Assembly: GCA_951406725.2 (NCBI GenBank)
Contig: OX597822.1
Span: forward strand, 111,104,001-111,168,000
From: Octopus vulgaris
Lineage: Eukaryota
DNA: 64,000 bases
Reading direction: 5' to 3'
A program made the position numbers and the translations under genes. Position 1 is the first letter of the stretch. Every line of letters starts with the position of its first letter. Below, one piece after another: positions 2,308 to 40,067 of this stretch. The notes beneath the pieces were generated by a model that ran no database searches, was not told the origin of the DNA, and saw only the letters and a list, made by a program, of their open reading frames with translations.

Positions 2308-2403
2308 ATAAAACGGTAAGATAACAAAAGAAAGAAAGAGACCTCAATATTATGTAAATAGAGGAAATTTATCTATACAATATGTTACATTACTCGGTAG
2401 TCA

Positions 2404-2466
2404 AGATAAAACTCTGAGTTTCAGATGCCGAAGTGGAAATCCACAACACCATCTCTTCGGTTATCT
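2404..2466 (-). ncRNA. Minimal type I hammerhead-like motif (mirror of 3236-3298)
   Basis: Reverse complement of 3236-3298. Confidence 0.55.
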
Positions 2467-3235
2467 GGCTATTTGAAAACGTTATGAAAAAATACCGTTA
2501 AAAATGAAGGGAAATTACTCTGTTATAACTCTGCTTTGCCTGCGTACTTATACATCGCTCGCATTTTTCGTCATAAAAATTATATAAAAATACATAAAAA
2601 TATATAAAAATATATAAAAATATATAAAATCTTCTTGGGACATAACACAGAAAGCATGTTCTATCCGTTTTCTTTAGGGGACCAAAAACGTAACAGAAAT
2701 TTAGTCACATGTGGGCATGATCCGAAAAGCTCTGTCCTTGTATTTAGACATGTGGTAGGGTCTAAGCTGCTTTTCCAGATAAGCCATCTCTCCATGTCGC
2801 ATAAACCGCACCTTCCGCTGCCGTTAGTATAGGGCTTACATCTGGCCAAAATCTTCCATTGTATAAGCCCTATACTAACGGCAGCGGAAGGTGCGGTTTA
2901 TGCGACATGGAGAGATGGCTTATCTGGAAAAGCAGCTTAGACCCTACCACATGTCTAAATACAAGGACAGAGCTTTTCGGATCATGCCCACATGTGACTA
3001 AATTTCTGTTACGTTTTTGGTCCCCTAAAGAAAACGGATAGAACATGCTTTCTGTGTTATGTCCCAAGAAGATTTTATATATTTTTATATATTTTTATAT
3101 ATTTTTATGTATTTTTATATAATTTTTATGACGAAAAATGCGAGCGATGTATAAGTACGCAGGCAAAGCAGAGTTATAACAGAGTAATTTCCCTTCATTT
3201 TTAACGGTATTTTTTCATAACGTTTTCAAATAGCC

Positions 3236-3298
3236 AGATAACCGAAGAGATGGTGTTGTGGATTTCCACTTCGGCATCTGAAACTCAGAGTTTTATCT
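3236..3298 (+). ncRNA. Minimal type I hammerhead-like motif, U4C variant, in the PLE 3' UTR
   Basis: Stem I AGATAA/TTATCT; core CCGAAGA; stem II GATG/CATC; GAAA; near-palindromic stem III ACTCAGAGT; GUU site. Confidence 0.55.
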
Positions 3299-3327
3299 TG
3301 ACTACCGAGTAATGTAACATATTGTAT

Positions 3328-3369
<42 letters not shown>

Positions 3370-3424
3370 TTATAGAAGGAGTTCTACAGGACTAGAACTG
3401 TTTCATTCAAAAGAAATCATCAGG

Positions 3425-3473
3425 GCTTCCTGATGATTTCTTTTGAATGAAACAGTTCTAGTCCTGTAGAAGC
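3425..3473 (+). ncRNA. Type I hammerhead ribozyme
   Basis: Stem I GCTTC/GAAGC; CTGATGA 3430-3436; short stem II TTC-TTTT-GAA; GAAA; stem III ACAG/CTGT; GUA site, cleavage predicted after 3468. Confidence 0.75.
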
Positions 3474-3550
3474 ACCTTCTATAAAATAAATTAATTTACT
3501 CTGCTATGTATTGAGTACCTTACTTACTGTGGTTAACCCCGACTCAACCC

Positions 3551-5610: not shown

Positions 5611-6176
5611 ATATATTACGCTGGACTTAGACTTACCCCATTGTTGATCATATGTGAGACTCTCGGTATTAATTTCTGTGAGTAAATTTTTCTTTAGCAC
5701 TCTACGATAATTGCTTACTTTTACTCCGTCAACATAGGTACTGATCTTTGATAATCATGTTAGTATTTTCTTATATATAGTTTCTTGAGAACTTTTTTTA
5801 AACATCCTGAACCCTCACTTCAAATTGCTACTATCCGTAAATGAATTGTTGTATTCCCTAGACCATTACTAGCTCACACTTTTATTTACCGACCCGGTAG
5901 CCTCTGAGGGTAAATTATTTACTTTTAACATATTGGGCTTCTAGAATATTTGTCTTAGCCATGTTTTCTTACCTCTTCCTTCTCCCATTTGTTTATATTG
6001 TATGCTCTTGTTTTTCACTCTGATGAAGATCCGTTGCCTTAACTTGAATGCCCTATGAAGATAAAGAACATTATTCTCGCATTTATGTATAGACTGCATC
6101 TTGGGAATATGATCACTAACAGCCGTACGTTATGTTACGTCACCTATTTTGTTATGTCATGCATTGTATTAAAAAA

Positions 6177-7248
6177 TCTAGATATATAAAACTCTAGTTG
6201 TGTGAGTGTCTGTCCCCTTCGATTTAGATTCCTAACTACTCCCACATTTTGCGGTGCAGTTTAACCAAATTCGGGTATCTTATAGTCGTGATTCATATCG
6301 AGCCCGTCTGGCTATTAGCGCGCGTCAACAATGAGTCTACGATTTTAAAAATAAACTATGTCATATGAATGATGTATTTTCAATTGGTTTGTACAATTAA
6401 TCTAAGAATAACGTCGAACAACATTCATGGATGATACAAAGGAAGAGAAATTTAAATTCGAAAATTAATATTGGTTTCAAATTTTGGCACAAGGCCATCA
6501 TTTTCGTAGAAGCTGGGTACTTGTTAGCATCGAATCCAGTGCTCATATGGTATATATTTTTTTGACCCCGAAAGAATGAAAGGCAAAGTTGACCTCGTCG
6601 GAATTTAATCTCAAAACGTAAAACGGTAAAAAAAAAAAGGACGCTAAGCTTGGTCCTCCGGCGTGCTAACAATTCCGCCAATTCGCCGCTTCAAAGAATT
6701 AATGTTGCCATTTATTTATATTCTAATACTCCTGATTTCTAGTCCGGAGAGTTAGCAAAAGAACCAGAAATGTTCTAACAAAGAATAAGAGCCTGTCATA
6801 AAAACAATCCTTTCCTACAAATCTATGGGTTCGTGATTATGAAAGGAGCTACACAATGGTATTAATTGGATACAGTTTTTGCATTTAATAAGTTGGTTCA
6901 TTATTGCTATTGAAAGTCCGCTAGCGAGGATGTTATATTTTGTTCCATCGTTAAAGTGATATTACCAAAGCTGTACCAAATATCGTTATATTTTTATGAG
7001 TGTTTAAAACGGAAGAATTATTTAAAAATAAAGCTCGATTTAAACATGCGTTAGAATTATTACTGTTGTCTGCAGTGTCTTTAGAAAATAGGTAACATAC
7101 TGACACGTGAAAAAAAACTAACACACAAATATTCTCTCTCATTCCCTCTCTCTTTCTGTCTCTCACTCTCCCTCTCTCATTCACACACACAAACACATAC
7201 ACACGTACATTCTCTCACTAGCAATATGTATATATATATATATGTATG

Positions 7249-7285
<37 letters not shown>

Positions 7286-7660
7286 TTACACACACATATA
7301 TATAGCTTGCAGGAGAGTGTAAGCCATACACATACACGTACACACACATTAAAATGCATAATTTTTCGTGTGTCGATGGCGGCGGAGTTGGCGTCCATGG
7401 TCACACCTGCACCTGTTTGCTTCTCCCCCTTCTTCCCTCCCTCGTGAAGCTGTGGGGAAGGGAGTGTAAAGAAATCAACGTCGTAATGCGTTGTCAAGGA
7501 GACCAGCGTTCTTTTAGAACAACGACTTCGTGGCTTGAAGACACCAAAACAGAAATGGCTAAGAAAGCCCGAATTGGCATCTATAAGGGAAGTAACTCTC
7601 TAAAATGCTTATATAGTTATTTCCCTTACAAACCCGAGCAACGCCGGGCGATACTGCTAG
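6177..7660 (+). mobile_element. Non-autonomous Helitron containing a 1-kb insertion
   Basis: A|TC 5' end, subterminal hairpin CCCGAGCAACGCCGGG and CTAG|T 3' end. Termini match copies at 24179-24473 and 39674-40067. Confidence 0.8.
6351..7348 (-). repeat. Inverted duplicate of 8601-9617
   Basis: Near-identical reverse complement; ORFs 6397..6681(-)/9287..9571(+) and 6951..7202(-)/8787..9017(+) mirror each other. Confidence 0.95.
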
Positions 7661-7888
7661 TAAGCTATAAATGTGGTCCAAGCGATGTGTTGGTTAATCT
7701 GTAGTTTTTTTTTCCATTTTCTAATTATAAGTATGTATATATATATACTTAATAAATAGGGTTCAGCTAATCTTTGCTGAACCCTATTTATTAAATATTA
7801 CTTATGTTTACCATGAAATGGTCCTTTTTTCATGCTGAATTCTGCTTGGTGAAATTATTGATTAATTCTTAATTAATTAATTTTACCC

Positions 7889-7966
<78 letters not shown>

Positions 7967-8663
7967 CATTGGGATGCGACTCTATTATATACTGTTTTCT
8001 CTCCCTTTTTTTCTAATTCCCTTTTTCTTCCCTTCACCATTTTATATTTGTCTCTCGCCCCCCTTTCTCCTTATCTCTCTCTCTTGTTGCTCACACGTGA
8101 TCATCGTCCATCTTTCGTTTCCTCGCGTGATCATCTTTCTTTTTCTTTAGGACTGTCATATGGATTGGAGGTATTCTATCTTTCTCTTCTACCTTTTCTC
8201 TTTTCAAAGAAAATATTCCTCCAGAGTTCGCTATTTTACCCTCGTTCTGCTCTAACGAACCTCCATGTTTGTTCTCGCTCCGTTTCCTTTTATGTTCTGT
8301 TTTTGTTTCCTAATTTCACCCTTCATAAATCCAAAATTTTATTTTGTTACTTATAGGAGCAACTGTCTTCGAAGGCTCGTATTGTCGTTGAAGGTTCGAA
8401 ATGATAAGTAGATACAAACCCGACAACTGATGAGGGGTCGTTTGTTGTGTTACTCGTTCTGTTTTCCATGTGACTCTTTCGTTGTTTGCGTATTGAACTC
8501 ATTTGTTTTCGTATTTCGTGTTGATTACTGTTTCTGACATCCTGTACCCATATACCCATATCTGCTTGTGTGTGTATATATATATGCGTTTGTGTGTGTG
8601 TGTGTGTGTACGTGTATGTGTATGGCTTACACTCTCCTGCAAGCTATATATATGTGTGTGTAA

Positions 8664-8743
<80 letters not shown>

Positions 8744-9277
8744 TGCTAGTGAGAGAATGTACGTGTGTATGTGTTTGTGTGTGTGAATGAGAGAGGGAGA
8801 GTGTGAGAGACAGAAAGAGAGAGGGAATGAGAGAGAATATTTGTGTGTTATTTTTTTTCACGTGTCAGTATGTTACCTATTTTCTAAAGACACTGCAGAC
8901 AACAGTAATAATTCTAACGCATGTTTAAATCGAGCTTTATTTTTAAATAATTCTTCCGTTTTAAACACTCATAAAAATATAACGATATTTGGTACAGCTT
9001 TGGTAATATCACTTTAACGATGGAACAAAATATAACATCCTCGCTAGCGGACTTTCAATAGCAATAATGAACCAACTTATTAAATGCAAAAACTGTATCC
9101 AATTAAGACCATTGTGTAGCTCCTTTCATAATCACGAACCCATAGATTTGTAAGAAAGGATTGTTTTTATGACAGGCTCTTATTCTTTGTTAGAACATTT
9201 CTGGTTCTTTTGCTAACTCTCCGGACTAGAAATCAGGAGTATTAAAATATAAATAAATGGCAACATTAATTCTTTGA

Positions 9278-9500
9278 AGCGGTGAATTGGCGGAATTGTT
9301 AGCACGCCGGAGGACCAAGCTTAGCGTCCTTTTTTTTTTTACCGTTTTACGTTTTGAGATTAAATTCCGACGAGGTCAACTTTGCCTTTCATCCTTTCGG
9401 GGTCAAGAAAATACATACCATATGAGCACTGGATTCGATGCTAACAAGTACCCAGCTTCTACGAAAATGATGGCCTTGTGCCAAAATTTGAAACCAATAT
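9278..9500 (+). mobile_element. Diverged SINE family B (duplicated at ~6470-6690, minus)
   Basis: GGCGGAATTGTTAGCACGCCGG head; CTTTGCCTTTCATCCTTTCGGGGTC core. Confidence 0.7.
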
Positions 9501-10999
9501 TAATTTTCGAATTTAAATTTCTCTTCCTTTGTATCATCCATGAATGTTGTTCGACGTTATTCTTAGATTAATTGTACAAACCAATTGAAAATACATCATT
9601 CATATGACATAGTTTATATGGTTTTCTACGAACGGTATTTGTTTAAGAGTAAATTCCTCAGAATACACGAGTCTATACACAGTAGAAACATTCAGCTGCT
9701 ACTTCTGTCATTTCAGTAGAAAAATGTAGCTGATACAGTAGAGAAATGTAGTTGCTATTTCTAGCATTTCATCTGCCACATAGATATCAACCCCTTGACT
9801 CGGTGTGTCTCGTTTACTCCAGTCGAAATGAATTAATATAGAATTTAAATGGTAAATTCTTTCTAAATTCAGTTCTTGCCCAGTTTCCACGTTTCACAAA
9901 TGCTTCTAATAAGCTAGAGTGGTAACATAAATGGCAAGGAATTTGGCTAACGATTTGAAACACAACATTAATTACATAAGGCAGTATAGTCTTCCTCGGT
10001 TCTAATCTTGCAAGACTCGATTTTACTTTCCATTCTTCTTGGATCGATATAGTGTAAGTAACTTAAATATATCTAAAGTCGATTGAATTCTTTCCTCCCT
10101 TAGCCAATAAATCAATAACAGCTGACGATGCGAAATAATTATCCGCTTCTGTATGCTGGACCAGTCTCTTTGTGTCGTGTTTGACAATGTTTTCACTAGG
10201 AGATGCAAGTGAACATTATATACGAATGTGTAGTGTGATTAGAGTTCAAATATAGAACCTGATGTTAAATTATCGTGGGTCTTGTTTCATTGAAACCAAA
10301 TACAATATATTTTCTTTTGTTTGTATGCGTAGGCGGCAACATACGATGTGGAACCACACGCATCCAATTTACTGCGCGGATAAAGTCATATACCTACATC
10401 TACACATGTATGTACACATTCTCATACATACACATACGCGCTCACTGGTACGTTGATATTCGAATACTCCTAAATAGAATCTAGGATAACAGATACCTTA
10501 AATTTAATTACAATTAATCAATAAATGTTGGTGCAATCCGAATAAAAAATAATTCCATTTCATTGTATTGCAGTGTATTTTATTCTATATTTACTTTAGA
10601 TAACCCACTTTTCTGGGGTTTTTTTTACAATTGCATTTATGTTAACTTATAGCGGTTCATGTTCTGTTCGTGCTACAAATTCATTGAGAACCCCCCGCCC
10701 CCATCTAAACTACAAAATAGATACGATGAAATCGAATTATCATTGATTATATACAAATATCTTTCATGCATAATCGGTTACCAAAATTCACTGATGCCTC
10801 TTCCAAATAATTACTGCCAAACTTACCAATTTTGACCAAACTAGAACTCCCTACTTGTGTTCAATGATGATATTCTTTACAACTTAAAATTTTACTACCT
10901 TTTATGAAAAGTTCTTGTATGTAGTATTCCTCCTTTTTAATCATTTAAAACATCTAAATATCGCCAAGCATTATTCAAGCCTGTAAATAAATAATAGTA

Positions 11000-12240
11000 T
11001 CAGATCATCCCATAAGTTCAGTCCGAATTTTTAATGAAGAAAACAAGTGATCAAATGTTATATTTAATTGAAATTTAATCATCAATGTACTTTCCCTGAT
11101 TATCTATGACTTCCTTCCATCTATTTACAAGCTTTCTAATCCCATCAATGTAAAACTCTTTTGGTTTCAAAGCGAAGAACTCTGAAATGTCAGTTTCGAC
11201 CTCTTCCTGGTTTGCGAAAGTTATGTCCCCCAAATGATTCTGTAAACTACGAAACAAATGGTAGTCTGAAGGAGCAAGGTAGATGAGGAAGGTTTTCCCA
11301 ACGAAGCTCTTCGATCTTCTGTGATGTAATCTTTGCAGTGTGTGGTCGCGCAGTGTCCTGATGAAACATCACAACTTTTCGATTTACTAAAGCAGTTTTT
11401 TTTTCTTCAAAGCTTGTTTCAGACGCTCTAATTCCTGACTGTAGACTGGAGCATTGATTGTTTCATTAGGTGGTAACAATTCAGAGTGAATTACTCCTCT
11501 TCAATCCCACCAGATAGAGAGAATAATCTTTTTCCAGTGAAGTTCTCTTCTCGGTTGAGGTTGAGCTTTTTCCCTTTTACCAAGCCACTGTTTACGATGT
11601 TTAACATTTCGATAGAAGATCCATTTTTCGTCACTAATCACAAGTCTATCGAAAAAGGGTGAAATGAGTTCGCGAGAATGGAGAGAAGAGCAGATGTCAA
11701 TTCGGAATATGCAGTTGTTTTCGGACAATTCATGAGGCACCCATTTTCCATGTTTAGGAACCTTTCCAAGTTGTTGAAGATAACGATGAACAGTTGTATG
11801 GTTTGAACTAAGCTTTATTGCCAATTCTTCAATTGATAATGCAGAATTTTCTTCATGTAATGCCTCAAGGAGCTTATCGTCAAACTGAACTGGACGCCCT
11901 TTTCCATCTACATCTCCAAGGCTCAAATCCCCACTTATAAATTTTGCAAACCATCCTCTGCAGGTTCTTTCATTCAAGCATTCTTTCCCGTAAACTGAGT
12001 GTATGTTTTGAGTCGCTTTGGTTGCAGAGTTTTCTTTTTTGCACTCTTAAAACATTATGTGCCTCAAATGCTCTTTGGATACTACCATGTTAGAAAGTCT
12101 GTAAAATAATATTTAATTAGTCTAAATGTACACAAATGCATAAAAATAATTTTTAAATCCATTAGACATTCTAAAATACTATTAAATTTCATTCAGTTTT
12201 AAAAAAGGTAAAATTGGACAGAACTTATGGGATAACATGA
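11000..12240 (-). mobile_element. Near full-length mariner DNA transposon
   Basis: Imperfect TIRs TCAGATCATCCCATAAGTTCAGTCC / GGACAGAACTTATGGGATAACATGA flanked by TA; about 1.24 kb. Confidence 0.9.
11075..12088 (-). pseudogene. Mariner transposase, disrupted by stops and frameshifts
   Basis: WVPHEL, SDEKW, HQDTARPH and LAPSDYHLFRSLQ motifs; ORFs 11501..11977 and 11075..11257. Confidence 0.9.
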
Positions 12241-18374: not shown

Positions 18375-19135
18375 TACCATGTGGTATCAAAGATTTCCAG
18401 GACTAGTGCGCCTACAGATGGCATCACACAGTTGTGTGCGCGGTGAGAGCTAGCAGTGACCTTCAAGAGGCAGTGTGCCGGGGAACATCACTGTTTATAT
18501 TCTGCTGTTTGTGTTTTTGTCATGGACAAGAACAAAGAGACAACCTGAAATTTTGCGTTAAACTAGGGAGGTCTGCTACAGAGACATTGACCATTCTTCA
18601 GCAAAATTACGGCAAGCAATGGGCCTTATGCAATGTTTTAAGTAGGACGGGCGCTTCAAAAGCGGAAAGACATCCCTGGAAGTCGACCAGCGATCTGGAA
18701 GACCTGCCTTCCGCGGAAATGTGTTGTTTTACATCGAGAATTCTTACCCCAGGATCAGACCCTCAATCAAGAGTTCTAGTGCTACATTCTGTAACCTTGG
18801 AGGTAAAACATTCAACGACCGGATTTGTCGAGCGCGAAGAATTTGATTCTTTATTGAGCTCTTCTCACTCAGGAGATTCTCGCCGAAAAGAATATGGTAT
18901 CGCTTCTGCATCCTCCCAGCGCTATTCGAGATCCAGAGTGAATAGAAGAAAGTCCTCAACTCGCTTAAGGAAAAAAACTTCTAGGCTGGATTCCAAATGT
19001 GGCAGTGACGCTGGAACCAGTATATTGCTGCGCAAGGCCACTATTTCGAAGGAGATGGTAGTGATAAAACTTAGGTAAATAAGTTATTTTTTATAAAACA
19101 TAACGACTCCGGGAACATTATCATACCACCTCATA
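18375..19135 (+). mobile_element. Internally deleted mariner element
   Basis: Imperfect TIRs GTGGTATCAAAGATTTCCAGGA / TCCGGGAACATTATCATACCAC; N-terminal EQRDNLKFCVKLGRSATETLTILQQNYG HTH segment. Confidence 0.8.
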
Positions 19136-24178: not shown

Positions 24179-24473
24179 TCTTTATATATAAAAGAGAGGT
24201 TGTGTGTCTGTCTCCTACGATTTAGATTCCTAACTACTCCCACATTTTGCGGTGCAGTTTAACCAAAACCGGGTATCTTATAGTCGTGATTCATATCGAG
24301 CCCTTCTGGGTATTAGCGCGCGTCTACAATGAGTCTACGAGTTTTTTAAAAAATTACCATCATATTTTTTCCATTTTTAATGCATTTCTTTGCTATTTTT
24401 GGCTATAACTCTCTAAAAATGCTTTATAGTTATTTCCCTTACAAACCCGGGCAACGCCGGGCGATACTGCTAG
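24179..24473 (+). mobile_element. Short non-autonomous Helitron
   Basis: 5' TC, hairpin CCCGGGCAACGCCGGG and 3' CTAG|T. Confidence 0.85.
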
Positions 24474-26329: not shown

Positions 26330-27957
26330 TTCTAACTTTCCCAGAAATCCTGTCCTTTACCTGTTATTTCTAGCATGACCGAGGTGACATTTGTGTTCCA
26401 CCCATGATTGTTTTCCTAAATGTTTTCCGATTCCTATGTTTTCAATACAGGAGATTAGGATTTCGCCCAAAAAGCACGTGCGTGTGTATGTGAGAGTGTG
26501 TGTGCGTGTGCGTGTGGATTGTGGCTGGTAACCTTGACGTGTAGATGTGTGCATTTGTAGGTGTGAGTGCTGGGAAGCGGTCAGTGCTAGTGTGTACGGG
26601 GTGGTGTGATGTAGTGTGGTGTGGCATGATGTAGTGTGAGTGCATTGTAGTGTGGTGGTTTGTAGTGTGGTTGATTTACCGAAATCAACGAACGATCATA
26701 TGATCCCGTATAATCGACCATATGTTTGACTTCGTAACTTTCCTACTTCAAGCGAAAGAATAGCATAAAATAACATCATTTAACACACACACACACATAC
26801 GCACACACTCTCTGGCTACAACTTCTGAATGAATTATGCTATTTATTGCTATGTGCAGGCGCAAAATTACTGCTAAATTCCAATTGAAATCACCTTTTTC
26901 CATTCTGTAATTCATGTTTGTGACGTGTGTATTTAAAAATCTAATGGTCGATATAAATTTAAAAGGAAGTTCTCCCAGAAATCCTTTCCTTTACCTGTTA
27001 TTTCTAGCATGACCGAGGTGACATTTGTGTTCCACCCTTGATTTTTTTTCCTAAATTTCTTCCGATTCCTATGTTTTAAATACACGAGATTAGGTTTTCG
27101 CCCAAAAAGCACGTTCTCAATGTTTGGATTTTCTTCCTCCTCATCCCCATCCCAATTTCGAAATTCTTTACTCTTTTCAAACGTTTTTCTTGGAAATCCA
27201 TGAAGAAATAACAGTATGAAGCTTTAAGAATTTTCTGCTTTTTTCTTAAAGAAACACTAAAATCTCCTTCCCAAACATTCACCCATCACATCACCTTTTT
27301 GAAAAAGCTACAAACTCACAATGTTTTACTTTTAGGTTTCTGGAAAGCGGGGAATTTCTTCAGAAGTAACAGCGCTTACCTGTTGTTTCTAGCATGTCGG
27401 GGTTTTTTTCTGGTGGTGCTCTAATATTTTTTACATTTGCTATTTCAGTACATGAAACATCAGACGAAAGTGATACATAGGGTGTTCTTAGCTTTTTGAA
27501 AGCGGGTATGTGACTTGGAAGGGCCATTGAGTGTTTCTTGAAGAACAATTTAACTTAAAAACGTGATATATAATATTTCCCAGCTTCGTAATCTCTTGCT
27601 TTTTTTTCCAAAATGGAGGAAAAAAAATTCGTAAAATAAGTTAGAAACGAAGAAATTGCGGTGGGGACAGTAGGAAAATAAAATTTTGAAAACGTGATTT
27701 CTGGGCAAAATAGTATTGGCCCCTTTTATACGATGAAGCAATACATAGTTTGTGACCCTTCTTAAGCACAGAAAGCACTTTCATGCAAACCCATGCAAAT
27801 TGTACACTCCTCTTTCACTTTTAAACAAACAATAATTTCCATTACGCTAGTAATCCGGTTCACTATTTATCAGCTGTGCTGATTCTGCTCAAAATGAAGG
27901 AACAAATAATACAATATGGCGCTATAACACCCGGGCAACACCGGGATCCACTGCTAG
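26330..27957 (+). mobile_element. Probable longer Helitron-derived element (5' limit uncertain)
   Basis: 3' hairpin CCCGGGCAACACCGGG and CTAG at 27954-27957; internal ~140-bp direct repeat 26340-26480 / 26973-27113. Confidence 0.5.
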
Positions 27958-39673: not shown

Positions 39674-40067
39674 CTAGCAGTATCGCCCGGCGTTGCTCGG
39701 GTTTATAAGGGAAATAACTATAAAGCATTTTTAGAGAGTTATACCCAAAAGATAGCAAAAAAATGCATTAAAAATGGAAAAAGTATGATGGTAATTTTTT
39801 TTTAAATCGTTGACTCATCGTAGACATTTGTAGAGAGTTACTTCCCTTATATTTAAAAAATATGCATTAAAATGGAAAAAAAATGGTGGTAAATTATTTT
39901 TAAAATCGTAGACTCATCGTAGACGCGCGCTAATACCCAGAAGGGCTCGATATGAATCATGACTATAAGATACCCGCTTTTGGTTAAACTGCACCGCAAA
40001 ATGTGGGAGTAGTTAGGAATCTAAATCGGAGTAGACAGACACACAACCTTACTTTTATATATAAAGA
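39674..40067 (-). mobile_element. Short non-autonomous Helitron
   Basis: Minus strand A|TC...CCCGAGCAACGCCGGG...CTAG|T; homologous to 24179-24473. Confidence 0.88.

What the first reader, a model, noticed from the sequence alone, without database searches (positions are those of the whole stretch)
6177..9617. Helitron containing a 1-kb inverted copy of DNA located 1-2 kb downstream
Seen: the Helitron 5' part (6177-6354) and 3' part (7347-7660) are separated by the reverse complement of 8601-9617, which replaces roughly 20 bp found in the sister copy at 39674-40067. The junctions show microhomology (ATAA left, CA right), and the two copies differ by a few substitutions and in (TA)n length. Inference: templated filler-DNA repair of a break inside the element, one proposed route of Helitron sequence capture, seen here with the donor still adjacent. 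It also creates a 1-kb inverted repeat.
Basis: partly seen in the sequence, partly recalled or inferred. Interest (0 to 1): 0.7.

Follow-up and report, generated by a model that had tools for sequence, protein, structure and literature searches.

The report
Repair scar inside a jumping element
One of thousands of copies of a small rolling-circle jumping element carries a backwards 1-kb copy of neighbouring non-coding DNA, likely a one-off replication or repair accident of a kind already described inside other transposons, and no moved copy of the hybrid was found.

Summary
A 513-bp non-autonomous Helitron (at least 3,699 copies) has lost 20 internal bases and carries in their place a 992-bp inverted copy of DNA lying 1.25 kb to its right. 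Junction microhomologies are 4 and 2 bp. A 10-bp in-place inversion at the right junction is unique in the genome, which hints at a third template switch. Public read contigs show both copies in two runs of one organism and a single copy in a sister lineage, so misassembly is unlikely. The copies diverged symmetrically (4 vs 3 substitutions in 778 bp). The insert is not a dispersed element, has no recognisable gene, and the hybrid has no moved copy. None of 100 other copies carries such an insert, while similar local duplications sit outside Helitrons in about 8 of 92 loci. Best reading: host template switching (gap filling) that happened to fall in a Helitron, the counterpart of single-copy Pack-TIRs. 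It is the founder stage of filler-DNA capture, not a completed capture. The scan's notes report similar local templated insertions elsewhere in this genome. Real, tidy, ordinary.

The parts
6177..6354 (+). 5' part (positions 1-178) of a 513-bp non-autonomous Helitron; starts TC; position 5 is G where the family has T
6351..6354 (+). left junction microhomology ATAA, shared by the Helitron and the donor end
   Evidence: chance of 4 bp or more is 0.02-0.04 in simulation
6355..7346 (-). 992-bp inverted copy of the donor, replacing 20 bp of the element (consensus 179-198)
   Evidence: only two near-identical copies in the genome
6463..6688 (.). old dispersed repeat (SINE-like by recall, not tested) carried inside the insert; the only part of the searched stretch 6400-7100 with matches elsewhere, at 70-80%
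7347..7356 (-). 10 bases that read as the reverse complement of the family's positions 199-208 (seen as TT>AA at 7351-7352); begin with the right microhomology CA; likely a further short template switch
7347..7660 (+). 3' part (positions 199-513) of the Helitron, with hairpin at 7633-7648 and terminal CTAG at 7657-7660
8601..9617 (+). donor: non-coding DNA from a (TG)n tract through (TA)n and unique sequence; in its ancestral place, continuous with the right flank in four read sets
   Evidence: contigs of 1558-1589 bp run from unique flank into the duplicated part
5880..6176 (+). left half of an older dispersed repeat that the Helitron split at an A|T step without target duplication; continues at 7661-7728
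   Evidence: 14 of 14 paralogues continue directly into sequence matching 7661 or 7662 onwards
7661..8600 (.). spacer between the element and the donor (old repeat fragments, microsatellites); with the Helitron 3' part it forms the 1,252-bp loop of the inverted repeat

Best explanation
A young non-autonomous Helitron copy lost 20 bases and gained a 992-bp inverted copy of DNA 1.25 kb away, likely through host microhomology-mediated template switching during replication or break repair (gap filling), likely without any role for the Helitron transposase. Shown: the anatomy, the two microhomologies, the unique 10-bp inversion, two copies only, presence in read data, symmetric divergence. Inferred: a strand copying leftwards through the element stalled near position 205; switched to the opposite strand for about 10 bases at the CATT/AATG quasi-palindrome; jumped on CA/TG into the (TG)n tract 1.25 kb behind it; copied about 1 kb; and rejoined at TTAT/ATAA 20 bases beyond the stall. 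The leftward direction is preferred only because it puts the donor in already replicated DNA. The event likely happened once in the germ line after the split from the sister lineages and has since aged neutrally.
For: Collinear halves with a 20-bp loss. Empty A|T site in 14 of 14 paralogues of the host repeat, so no inversion of the flanks. Microhomology 4 and 2 bp. Junction variant 1 vs 3,699. Only two near-identical copies of the insert. Collapsed contig over the duplicated part at depth 104.3 vs 62.9 for the 1,573-bp donor-flank contig in X1, and 27.4 vs 18.7 in X2, but 28.9 vs 48.1 in X4 and 40 vs 31.8 in X5. A 61-bp X1 contig with the insert's own letters has depth 55.9. Against X4/X8, 4 substitutions are insert-derived, 3 plus one deletion are donor-derived, and 3 are shared by both copies only. 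Candidate local non-repeat duplications in 8 of 92 loci, 6 with an inverted arm. Same features as single-copy Pack-TIRs: cis donor, microhomology median 2 bp, gap median 4.6% of the element (here 3.9%) (PMC8277862, passages).
Against: No contig spanning either junction could be examined, so the join itself rests on the assembly. The right microhomology (2 bp) is weak: P of 2 bp or more is 0.17. The Helitron copy is about as young as the duplication (7 substitutions in 487 bp from its nearest sampled relative, vs 7 in 778 bp between the arms), so coupling to integration is not excluded. TT>AA could be a tandem substitution rather than a switch. The background duplications were judged non-repeat only against 0.95 Mb and were not polarised.
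Confidence: 0.78

Rival explanations
1. Integration-coupled capture: the insert was made while the Helitron was being integrated or first replicated at this site (a single-stranded element loop or transposase nick stalls the fork), so the template is the DNA beside the target site.
For: Ages overlap. Outside the junction only one letter of the element is near-private among 51 copies, and its nearest sampled relative differs at 7 of 487 bases, similar to the arm divergence. A young autonomous family (about 6.15 kb, 99% identical copies, ORFs up to 1,744 aa) shares 32 of 36 terminal 3' bases and a similar 5' end.
Against: 0 of 100 position-ordered copies carry a foreign insert. Both termini and the target site are clean, and the break is internal. 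Similar duplications are frequent away from Helitrons. A 69-bp stretch of the 3' part with three variant letters is unique in the genome, so the copy has private changes.
Confidence: 0.12
2. Assembly artefact: two haplotypes of the donor were both placed, one inverted.
For: The arms differ by about 0.9%, a level that alleles could show.
Against: Alleles would give half-depth bubble arms and single depth overall. X1 shows 1.66-fold depth, and the insert's letters occur at near-full single-copy depth. X2, a different sample and study, shows 1.47-fold depth and an insert-derived letter (6723). The junctions fall precisely inside a collinear element with a 20-bp loss and a unique micro-inversion.
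Confidence: 0.03
3. Classical two-ended break repair (abortive synthesis-dependent annealing or end joining with filler DNA) outside a replication fork, with TT>AA an independent or polymerase-made tandem substitution.
For: It gives the same product apart from the 10-bp inversion. The resected right end could fold back on its own tail and copy downstream DNA in inverted orientation (inference). The filler model predicts short junction homology (PMC6544945, passages).
Against: The 10-bp inversion needs a template strand that neither trimmed end would keep (inference from the sequence). The change lies 4-5 bases from the junction and is absent from all other exact matches (1 vs 3,699).
Confidence: 0.07

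Closest known systems
Single-copy Pack-TIRs formed by transposition-independent gap filling (Tan et al. 2021, PMC8277862; passages read)
   Same: One copy; donor in cis within 5 kb; microhomology at both breakpoints; small internal gap (3.9% vs median 4.6%); intact termini.
   Different: The host element is a Helitron, not a TIR transposon. The captured DNA has no recognisable exon. Whether the element predates the capture at this site was not established.
Filler-DNA model of Helitron sequence acquisition (as described and applied to Spodoptera Hel1 in PMC6544945; passages)
   Same: Internal host sequence with short junction homology (2-13 bp there, 2-4 bp here).
   Different: There the hybrids amplified into subfamilies and the sources were other loci. 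Here the hybrid is single, and the source is 1.25 kb away and inverted.
Microhomology-mediated templated insertions, MMB-TI, classical and complex classes (PMC8421209; abstract and first part of section 10)
   Same: Germ-line insertion copied from a nearby template in reverse, with microhomology and several switches.
   Different: Those calls come from short reads and were filtered at 25 bp or more; this one is 992 bp.
Four-point template switch, type 1-4-3-2 / 3-2-1-4 (PMC7954356; passages)
   Same: Switch-point order 1-4-3-2, the pattern that yields one inverted repeat, reported there among the majority types.
   Different: That study treats short-range events; this one is kilobase-scale with an added in-place micro-inversion.

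Membership tests
Non-autonomous Helitron | 5' TC and 3' CTRR termini | tested here: met
   TC at 6177, CTAG at 7657-7660, same in most fetched copies
Non-autonomous Helitron | Short hairpin just inside the 3' end | tested here: met
   7633-7648, folds at -4.5 kcal/mol with DNA parameters
Non-autonomous Helitron | Insertion between A and T without target duplication | tested here: met
   14 of 14 paralogues of the host repeat are uninterrupted at this site
Non-autonomous Helitron | Autonomous RepHel partner with related ends | tested here: met
   PF14214 matches with long open frames; 9 of 14 fetched loci end 20-90 bp (or, in one with a shorter frame, about 1.9 kb) behind the frame in a terminus 88-89% like the element's. 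That it mobilises this family is inferred.
Gap-filling capture (single-copy Pack-type element) | Donor in cis, nearby | tested here: met
   1,252 bp away; no other near-identical source
Gap-filling capture (single-copy Pack-type element) | Microhomology at breakpoints | tested here: met
   4 bp (P about 0.02-0.04) and 2 bp (P about 0.17)
Gap-filling capture (single-copy Pack-type element) | Intact element at the orthologous site before capture (transposition-independent) | tested here: inconclusive
   Read contigs cannot assign Helitron or empty-site joints to this locus because the flanks are repeats; age estimates overlap
Completed Helitron capture (amplified hybrid) | Further transposed copies of the hybrid | tested here: not met
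   Two near-identical copies of the insert only; right-junction 24-mer occurs once
Completed Helitron capture (amplified hybrid) | Captured gene fragment | tested here: not met
   Only stop-to-stop frames of 97-140 aa over repeats and microsatellites; Rfam hits only on (TA)n, all below gathering score. No protein search was run on them.
End-bypass (3' transduction) capture | Captured DNA lies downstream of the original 3' end, in direct orientation, with a new terminus | tested here: not met
   The insert is internal and inverted; the original 3' end is intact
Dispersed transposon nested in the Helitron | Other copies with the same ends; target duplication | tested here: not met
   No other full copy; a 20-bp deletion instead of a duplication

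The most novel reading that the evidence does not exclude
This is a frozen first step of Helitron capture that is coupled to integration: a freshly inserted Helitron stalls the replication fork at an internal quasi-palindrome, and the fork fills the element with target-site DNA by three template switches. Helitrons would then routinely sample the neighbourhood of their landing site, and the donors of captured fragments would be former insertion sites.
Probability: 0.1. Interest if true: 0.55.

Novelty: new member of a known kind. Interest (0 to 1): 0.27.

Why it matters
How Helitrons take up internal host DNA is still described as unclear (PMC6544945, passages). A case with donor, break points and switch order all readable is a clean teaching example of the filler-DNA route, and it extends the single-copy Pack-TIR picture to a Helitron. 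It also shows that this genome, with thousands of young copies and an intact autonomous family, could be used to test whether Helitrons acquire local DNA more often than other repeats. As a single non-coding, unamplified event it changes nothing on its own.

Tried and rejected
Junction-spanning contigs: none was among the pieces listed. The listings are cut and the right junction lay in a skipped repeat, so this is no evidence either way. Expression: no RNA holder listed, so the idea of a double-stranded RNA hairpin from the inverted repeat was not tested. Empty-site joints 6176->7661 in all four runs cannot be assigned to this locus because the flank is a repeat; I used paralogues instead. 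Inversion with staggered breaks: rejected, since both halves and both flanks are collinear. Error-prone copying at birth (asymmetric changes on the insert): looked possible (3 of 3 letters insert-derived) but vanished with the full list (4 vs 3). 5' and 3' halves from two different elements: not supported, since the family's variant letters are mosaic across copies generally. The exact parent subfamily was not identified, which leaves the age of the Helitron insertion open. Rfam: only microsatellite-driven matches below threshold. PMC12001565 (passages) had nothing on cis donors. Paper searches listed no paper whose title or abstract start describes a Helitron with an adjacent inverted donor; the library lacks most subscription papers, and no supplements were read.

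Full report
1. Observation. Self-comparison of the window and a direct alignment show that 6351-7348 is the reverse complement of 8601-9617. Outside the microsatellites the arms differ at 7 substitutions (window 6554, 6561, 6575, 6685, 6723, 6815, 6861), one base at 7118 and a 2-bp indel. The (TA)n tract differs in length and purity. A genome search with 6400-7100 found only the two arms at 99-100%; all other matches were 70-80% hits to an old repeat inside it (40 of 3,968 candidates scored, best first). The window is G000:C9:111104001-111168000 of a 2.8-Gb assembly. That the animal is an octopus is my inference from genome size and repeat landscape; no call named it.

2. The host element. Searches with the two flanking pieces gave 96-99% matches across many contigs. 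In 58 loci other than the window, the two pieces are parts of one element of about 513 bp: 51 have exactly 20 bases between them, and the other 7 are alignment-end offsets, an internal deletion, a tandem pair and a head-to-head pair. The element starts TC, ends with a hairpin and CTAG, and sits between A and T. It split an older repeat, and 14 of 14 paralogues of that repeat run straight through the site with no duplication. An exact 24-mer of the family occurs 3,699 times. The genome holds many Helitron transposase frames (PF14214, 150 of 1,172 candidates scored). Nine of 14 fetched loci end behind the frame in a terminus 88-89% identical to the small element's, and the 8 compared in full form a 6.15-kb family with 99% identical copies and a similar 5' start. 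So it is a non-autonomous Helitron with a plausible partner.

3. Junctions. Left: ATAA is shared by Helitron position 175-178 and the donor end. A simulated random switch gives 4 bp or more in 1.9% of cases, or 4.3% with the Helitron position fixed. Right: CA, inside the donor's (CA)n; 2 bp or more arises in 17%. The 10 bases after the right junction read as the reverse complement of the family's positions 199-208, a CATT-TT-AATG quasi-palindrome. This form occurs once in the genome, here, against 3,699 for the normal form. I read this as a further short template switch; a tandem substitution is the alternative.

4. Is it real? Twenty of the 24 listed runs hold the stretch or part of it. I laid five runs, all as assembled contigs. 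The contig over the duplicated part has depth 104.3 in X1 against 62.9 for the 1,573-bp contig entering from the donor's unique flank (other single-copy pieces 49-81). In X2 it is 27.4 against 18.7 (16-19). In X4 it is 28.9 against 48.1, and in X5 40 against 31.8 (32-38). The X1 and X2 contigs mix insert and donor letters. X1 also has a 61-bp contig with the insert's letters at 6554, 6561 and 6575 at depth 55.9, close to full single-copy depth. That fits two real copies, probably on both chromosomes, and not two alleles. Caveats: contig depth is a mean over the contig, and X1 may be the assembly's own sample. X2 is a different sample and study. X4 (organism B) and X5 (labelled A, but sharing X4's variants) look single-copy. 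X8 gave no baseline for depth.

5. Age. With X4 and X8 as outgroups (6554, 6561 and 6575 rest on X4 alone), four substitutions are derived in the insert (6554, 6723, 6815, 6861). Three substitutions and the deletion at 7118 are derived in the donor (6561, 6575, 6685). Three further letters (6617, 6790, 7088) are shared by both arms but not by X4 or X8. The duplication therefore followed the split from those lineages, and both arms aged alike: 7 of 778 bases, 0.9% (95% interval 0.36-1.85%). With the scale quoted in PMC13282606 (JC 0.09 = 25 My; passages) that is roughly 1 My (0.5-2.6; my arithmetic, valid only if the taxon guess holds). The Helitron copy differs from its nearest relative among 122 comparable copies (of 151 held) at 7 of 487 bases, so it is at most modestly older. 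The data cannot say whether capture came at or after integration.

6. Is it Helitron-specific? I took the first 100 exact-motif copies on contig C1 with about 3 kb of flank. Sixty-five are full length, 7 have indels under 50 bp, 24 belong to a longer subfamily with duplications of the element's own sequence, and 4 are truncated. None has foreign DNA between collinear halves. The selection needs positions 199-222 intact, so copies broken there are excluded. In the same 92 loci (597 kb), self-comparison found local duplications of 100 bp or more, at 93% or more, of sequence mostly absent from the other 0.95 Mb held, in 8 loci: L140, L147, L149, L152, L174, L179, L181, L182. Six of them have an inverted arm. 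I dropped one row in L117 as part of a repeat cluster. In 4 of the 6 loci viewed in detail, one copy abuts a (TA)n tract. These are candidates only, since low-copy transposons are not excluded. Taking the three inverted cases at 98% or more gives about 5 per Mb, and the family covers about 1.9 Mb, so of the order of ten such hits are expected by chance (my arithmetic). Unchecked scan notes describe similar local templated insertions elsewhere in this genome.

7. Mechanism. Shown: a 20-bp loss, an inverted local copy, microhomologies, one junction-adjacent inversion, a single event. Inferred: template switching by the host. The switch-point order is 1-4-3-2, whose mirror case allows the template to lie behind the fork (PMC7954356, passages). 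Read leftwards, the strand stalls near position 205, copies 10 bases of the opposite strand, jumps on CA/TG to the (TG)n tract 1.25 kb behind, copies about 1 kb and rejoins at ATAA 20 bases ahead (confidence 0.78 for host template switching independent of transposition). Rivals: coupling to integration (0.12), two-ended break repair with an unrelated tandem substitution (0.07), artefact (0.03).

8. Comparison. The closest described class is the single-copy Pack-TIR made by transposition-independent gap filling: cis donors mostly within 5 kb among the proximal cases, microhomology median 2 bp, gap median 4.6% of the element (PMC8277862, passages). The filler-DNA model for Helitrons predicts the same junctions (PMC6544945, passages). 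Germ-line templated insertions with several switches are catalogued in humans (PMC8421209, abstract and first part of section 10). The case works like these. It fails the test for a completed Helitron capture: no moved copy and no recognisable gene fragment. Searches listed no report of a Helitron with an adjacent inverted donor, judged from titles and abstract starts, but the library is partial and no supplements were read.

9. Verdict. Real and well resolved, a new member of a known kind, interest 0.27. The bolder reading, capture coupled to integration, has probability about 0.1 and could be settled by one allele carrying the intact element at this site.

Noticed in passing
window 2367-3335: A 970-bp near-perfect palindrome (98%) beside (TA)n. 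It is a dispersed foldback element: one arm matches L139 at 99.6% and L059 at 95%. A second 125-bp palindrome follows at 3365-3489.
   Followed up: partly
L213-L217, L221, L222, L226 (e.g. G000:C2:110861700-110871699): A young autonomous Helitron family of about 6.15 kb, copies 99% identical, open frames up to 1,744 aa, with clean termini; a candidate active element.
   Followed up: partly
L131 2721-4737; L112 2528-4857; L052/L060; L070: Helitron copies in tandem arrays, some with a 5'-truncated inverted copy set head-to-head with a full copy. In L131 the inverted copy stops at consensus position 175, next to the left break point of the window's copy.
   Followed up: no
L149 2316-2757; L181 1176-2597; L147 483-1532; L174 3662-4284: Local duplications of 110-360 bp in which one copy abuts a (TA)n tract, suggesting that (TA)n tracts are break sites filled from neighbouring DNA in this genome.
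   Followed up: partly
L140 1-1888; L182 1-1146; L179 759-6401: Complex local rearrangements of non-repeat DNA with several direct and inverted pieces at 95-100% identity.
   Followed up: no
24 of 100 surveyed copies (e.g. L095, L100-L104): A longer subfamily of about 640-675 bp built from internal duplications of positions 146-220 of the element; another variant changes the letters at the quasi-palindrome near position 210. The region around the window's break is structurally labile across the family.
   Followed up: partly
window 24179-24473 (+) and 39674-40067 (-): Two shorter related Helitron subfamilies (about 295 and 394 bp) sharing termini with the 513-bp family.
   Followed up: no
window 26339-26479 and 26973-27114: A 142-bp direct duplication (94%) of non-repeat sequence, 493 bp apart.
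   Followed up: no
run X5: Labelled organism A but shares indels and substitutions with X4 (organism B) at this locus and lacks the depth signal of the duplication; possibly a sister lineage under the same label.
   Followed up: no
window 11078-12046 and 18407-19075: Frames that look like mariner-type transposase fragments by recall only; not searched.
   Followed up: no
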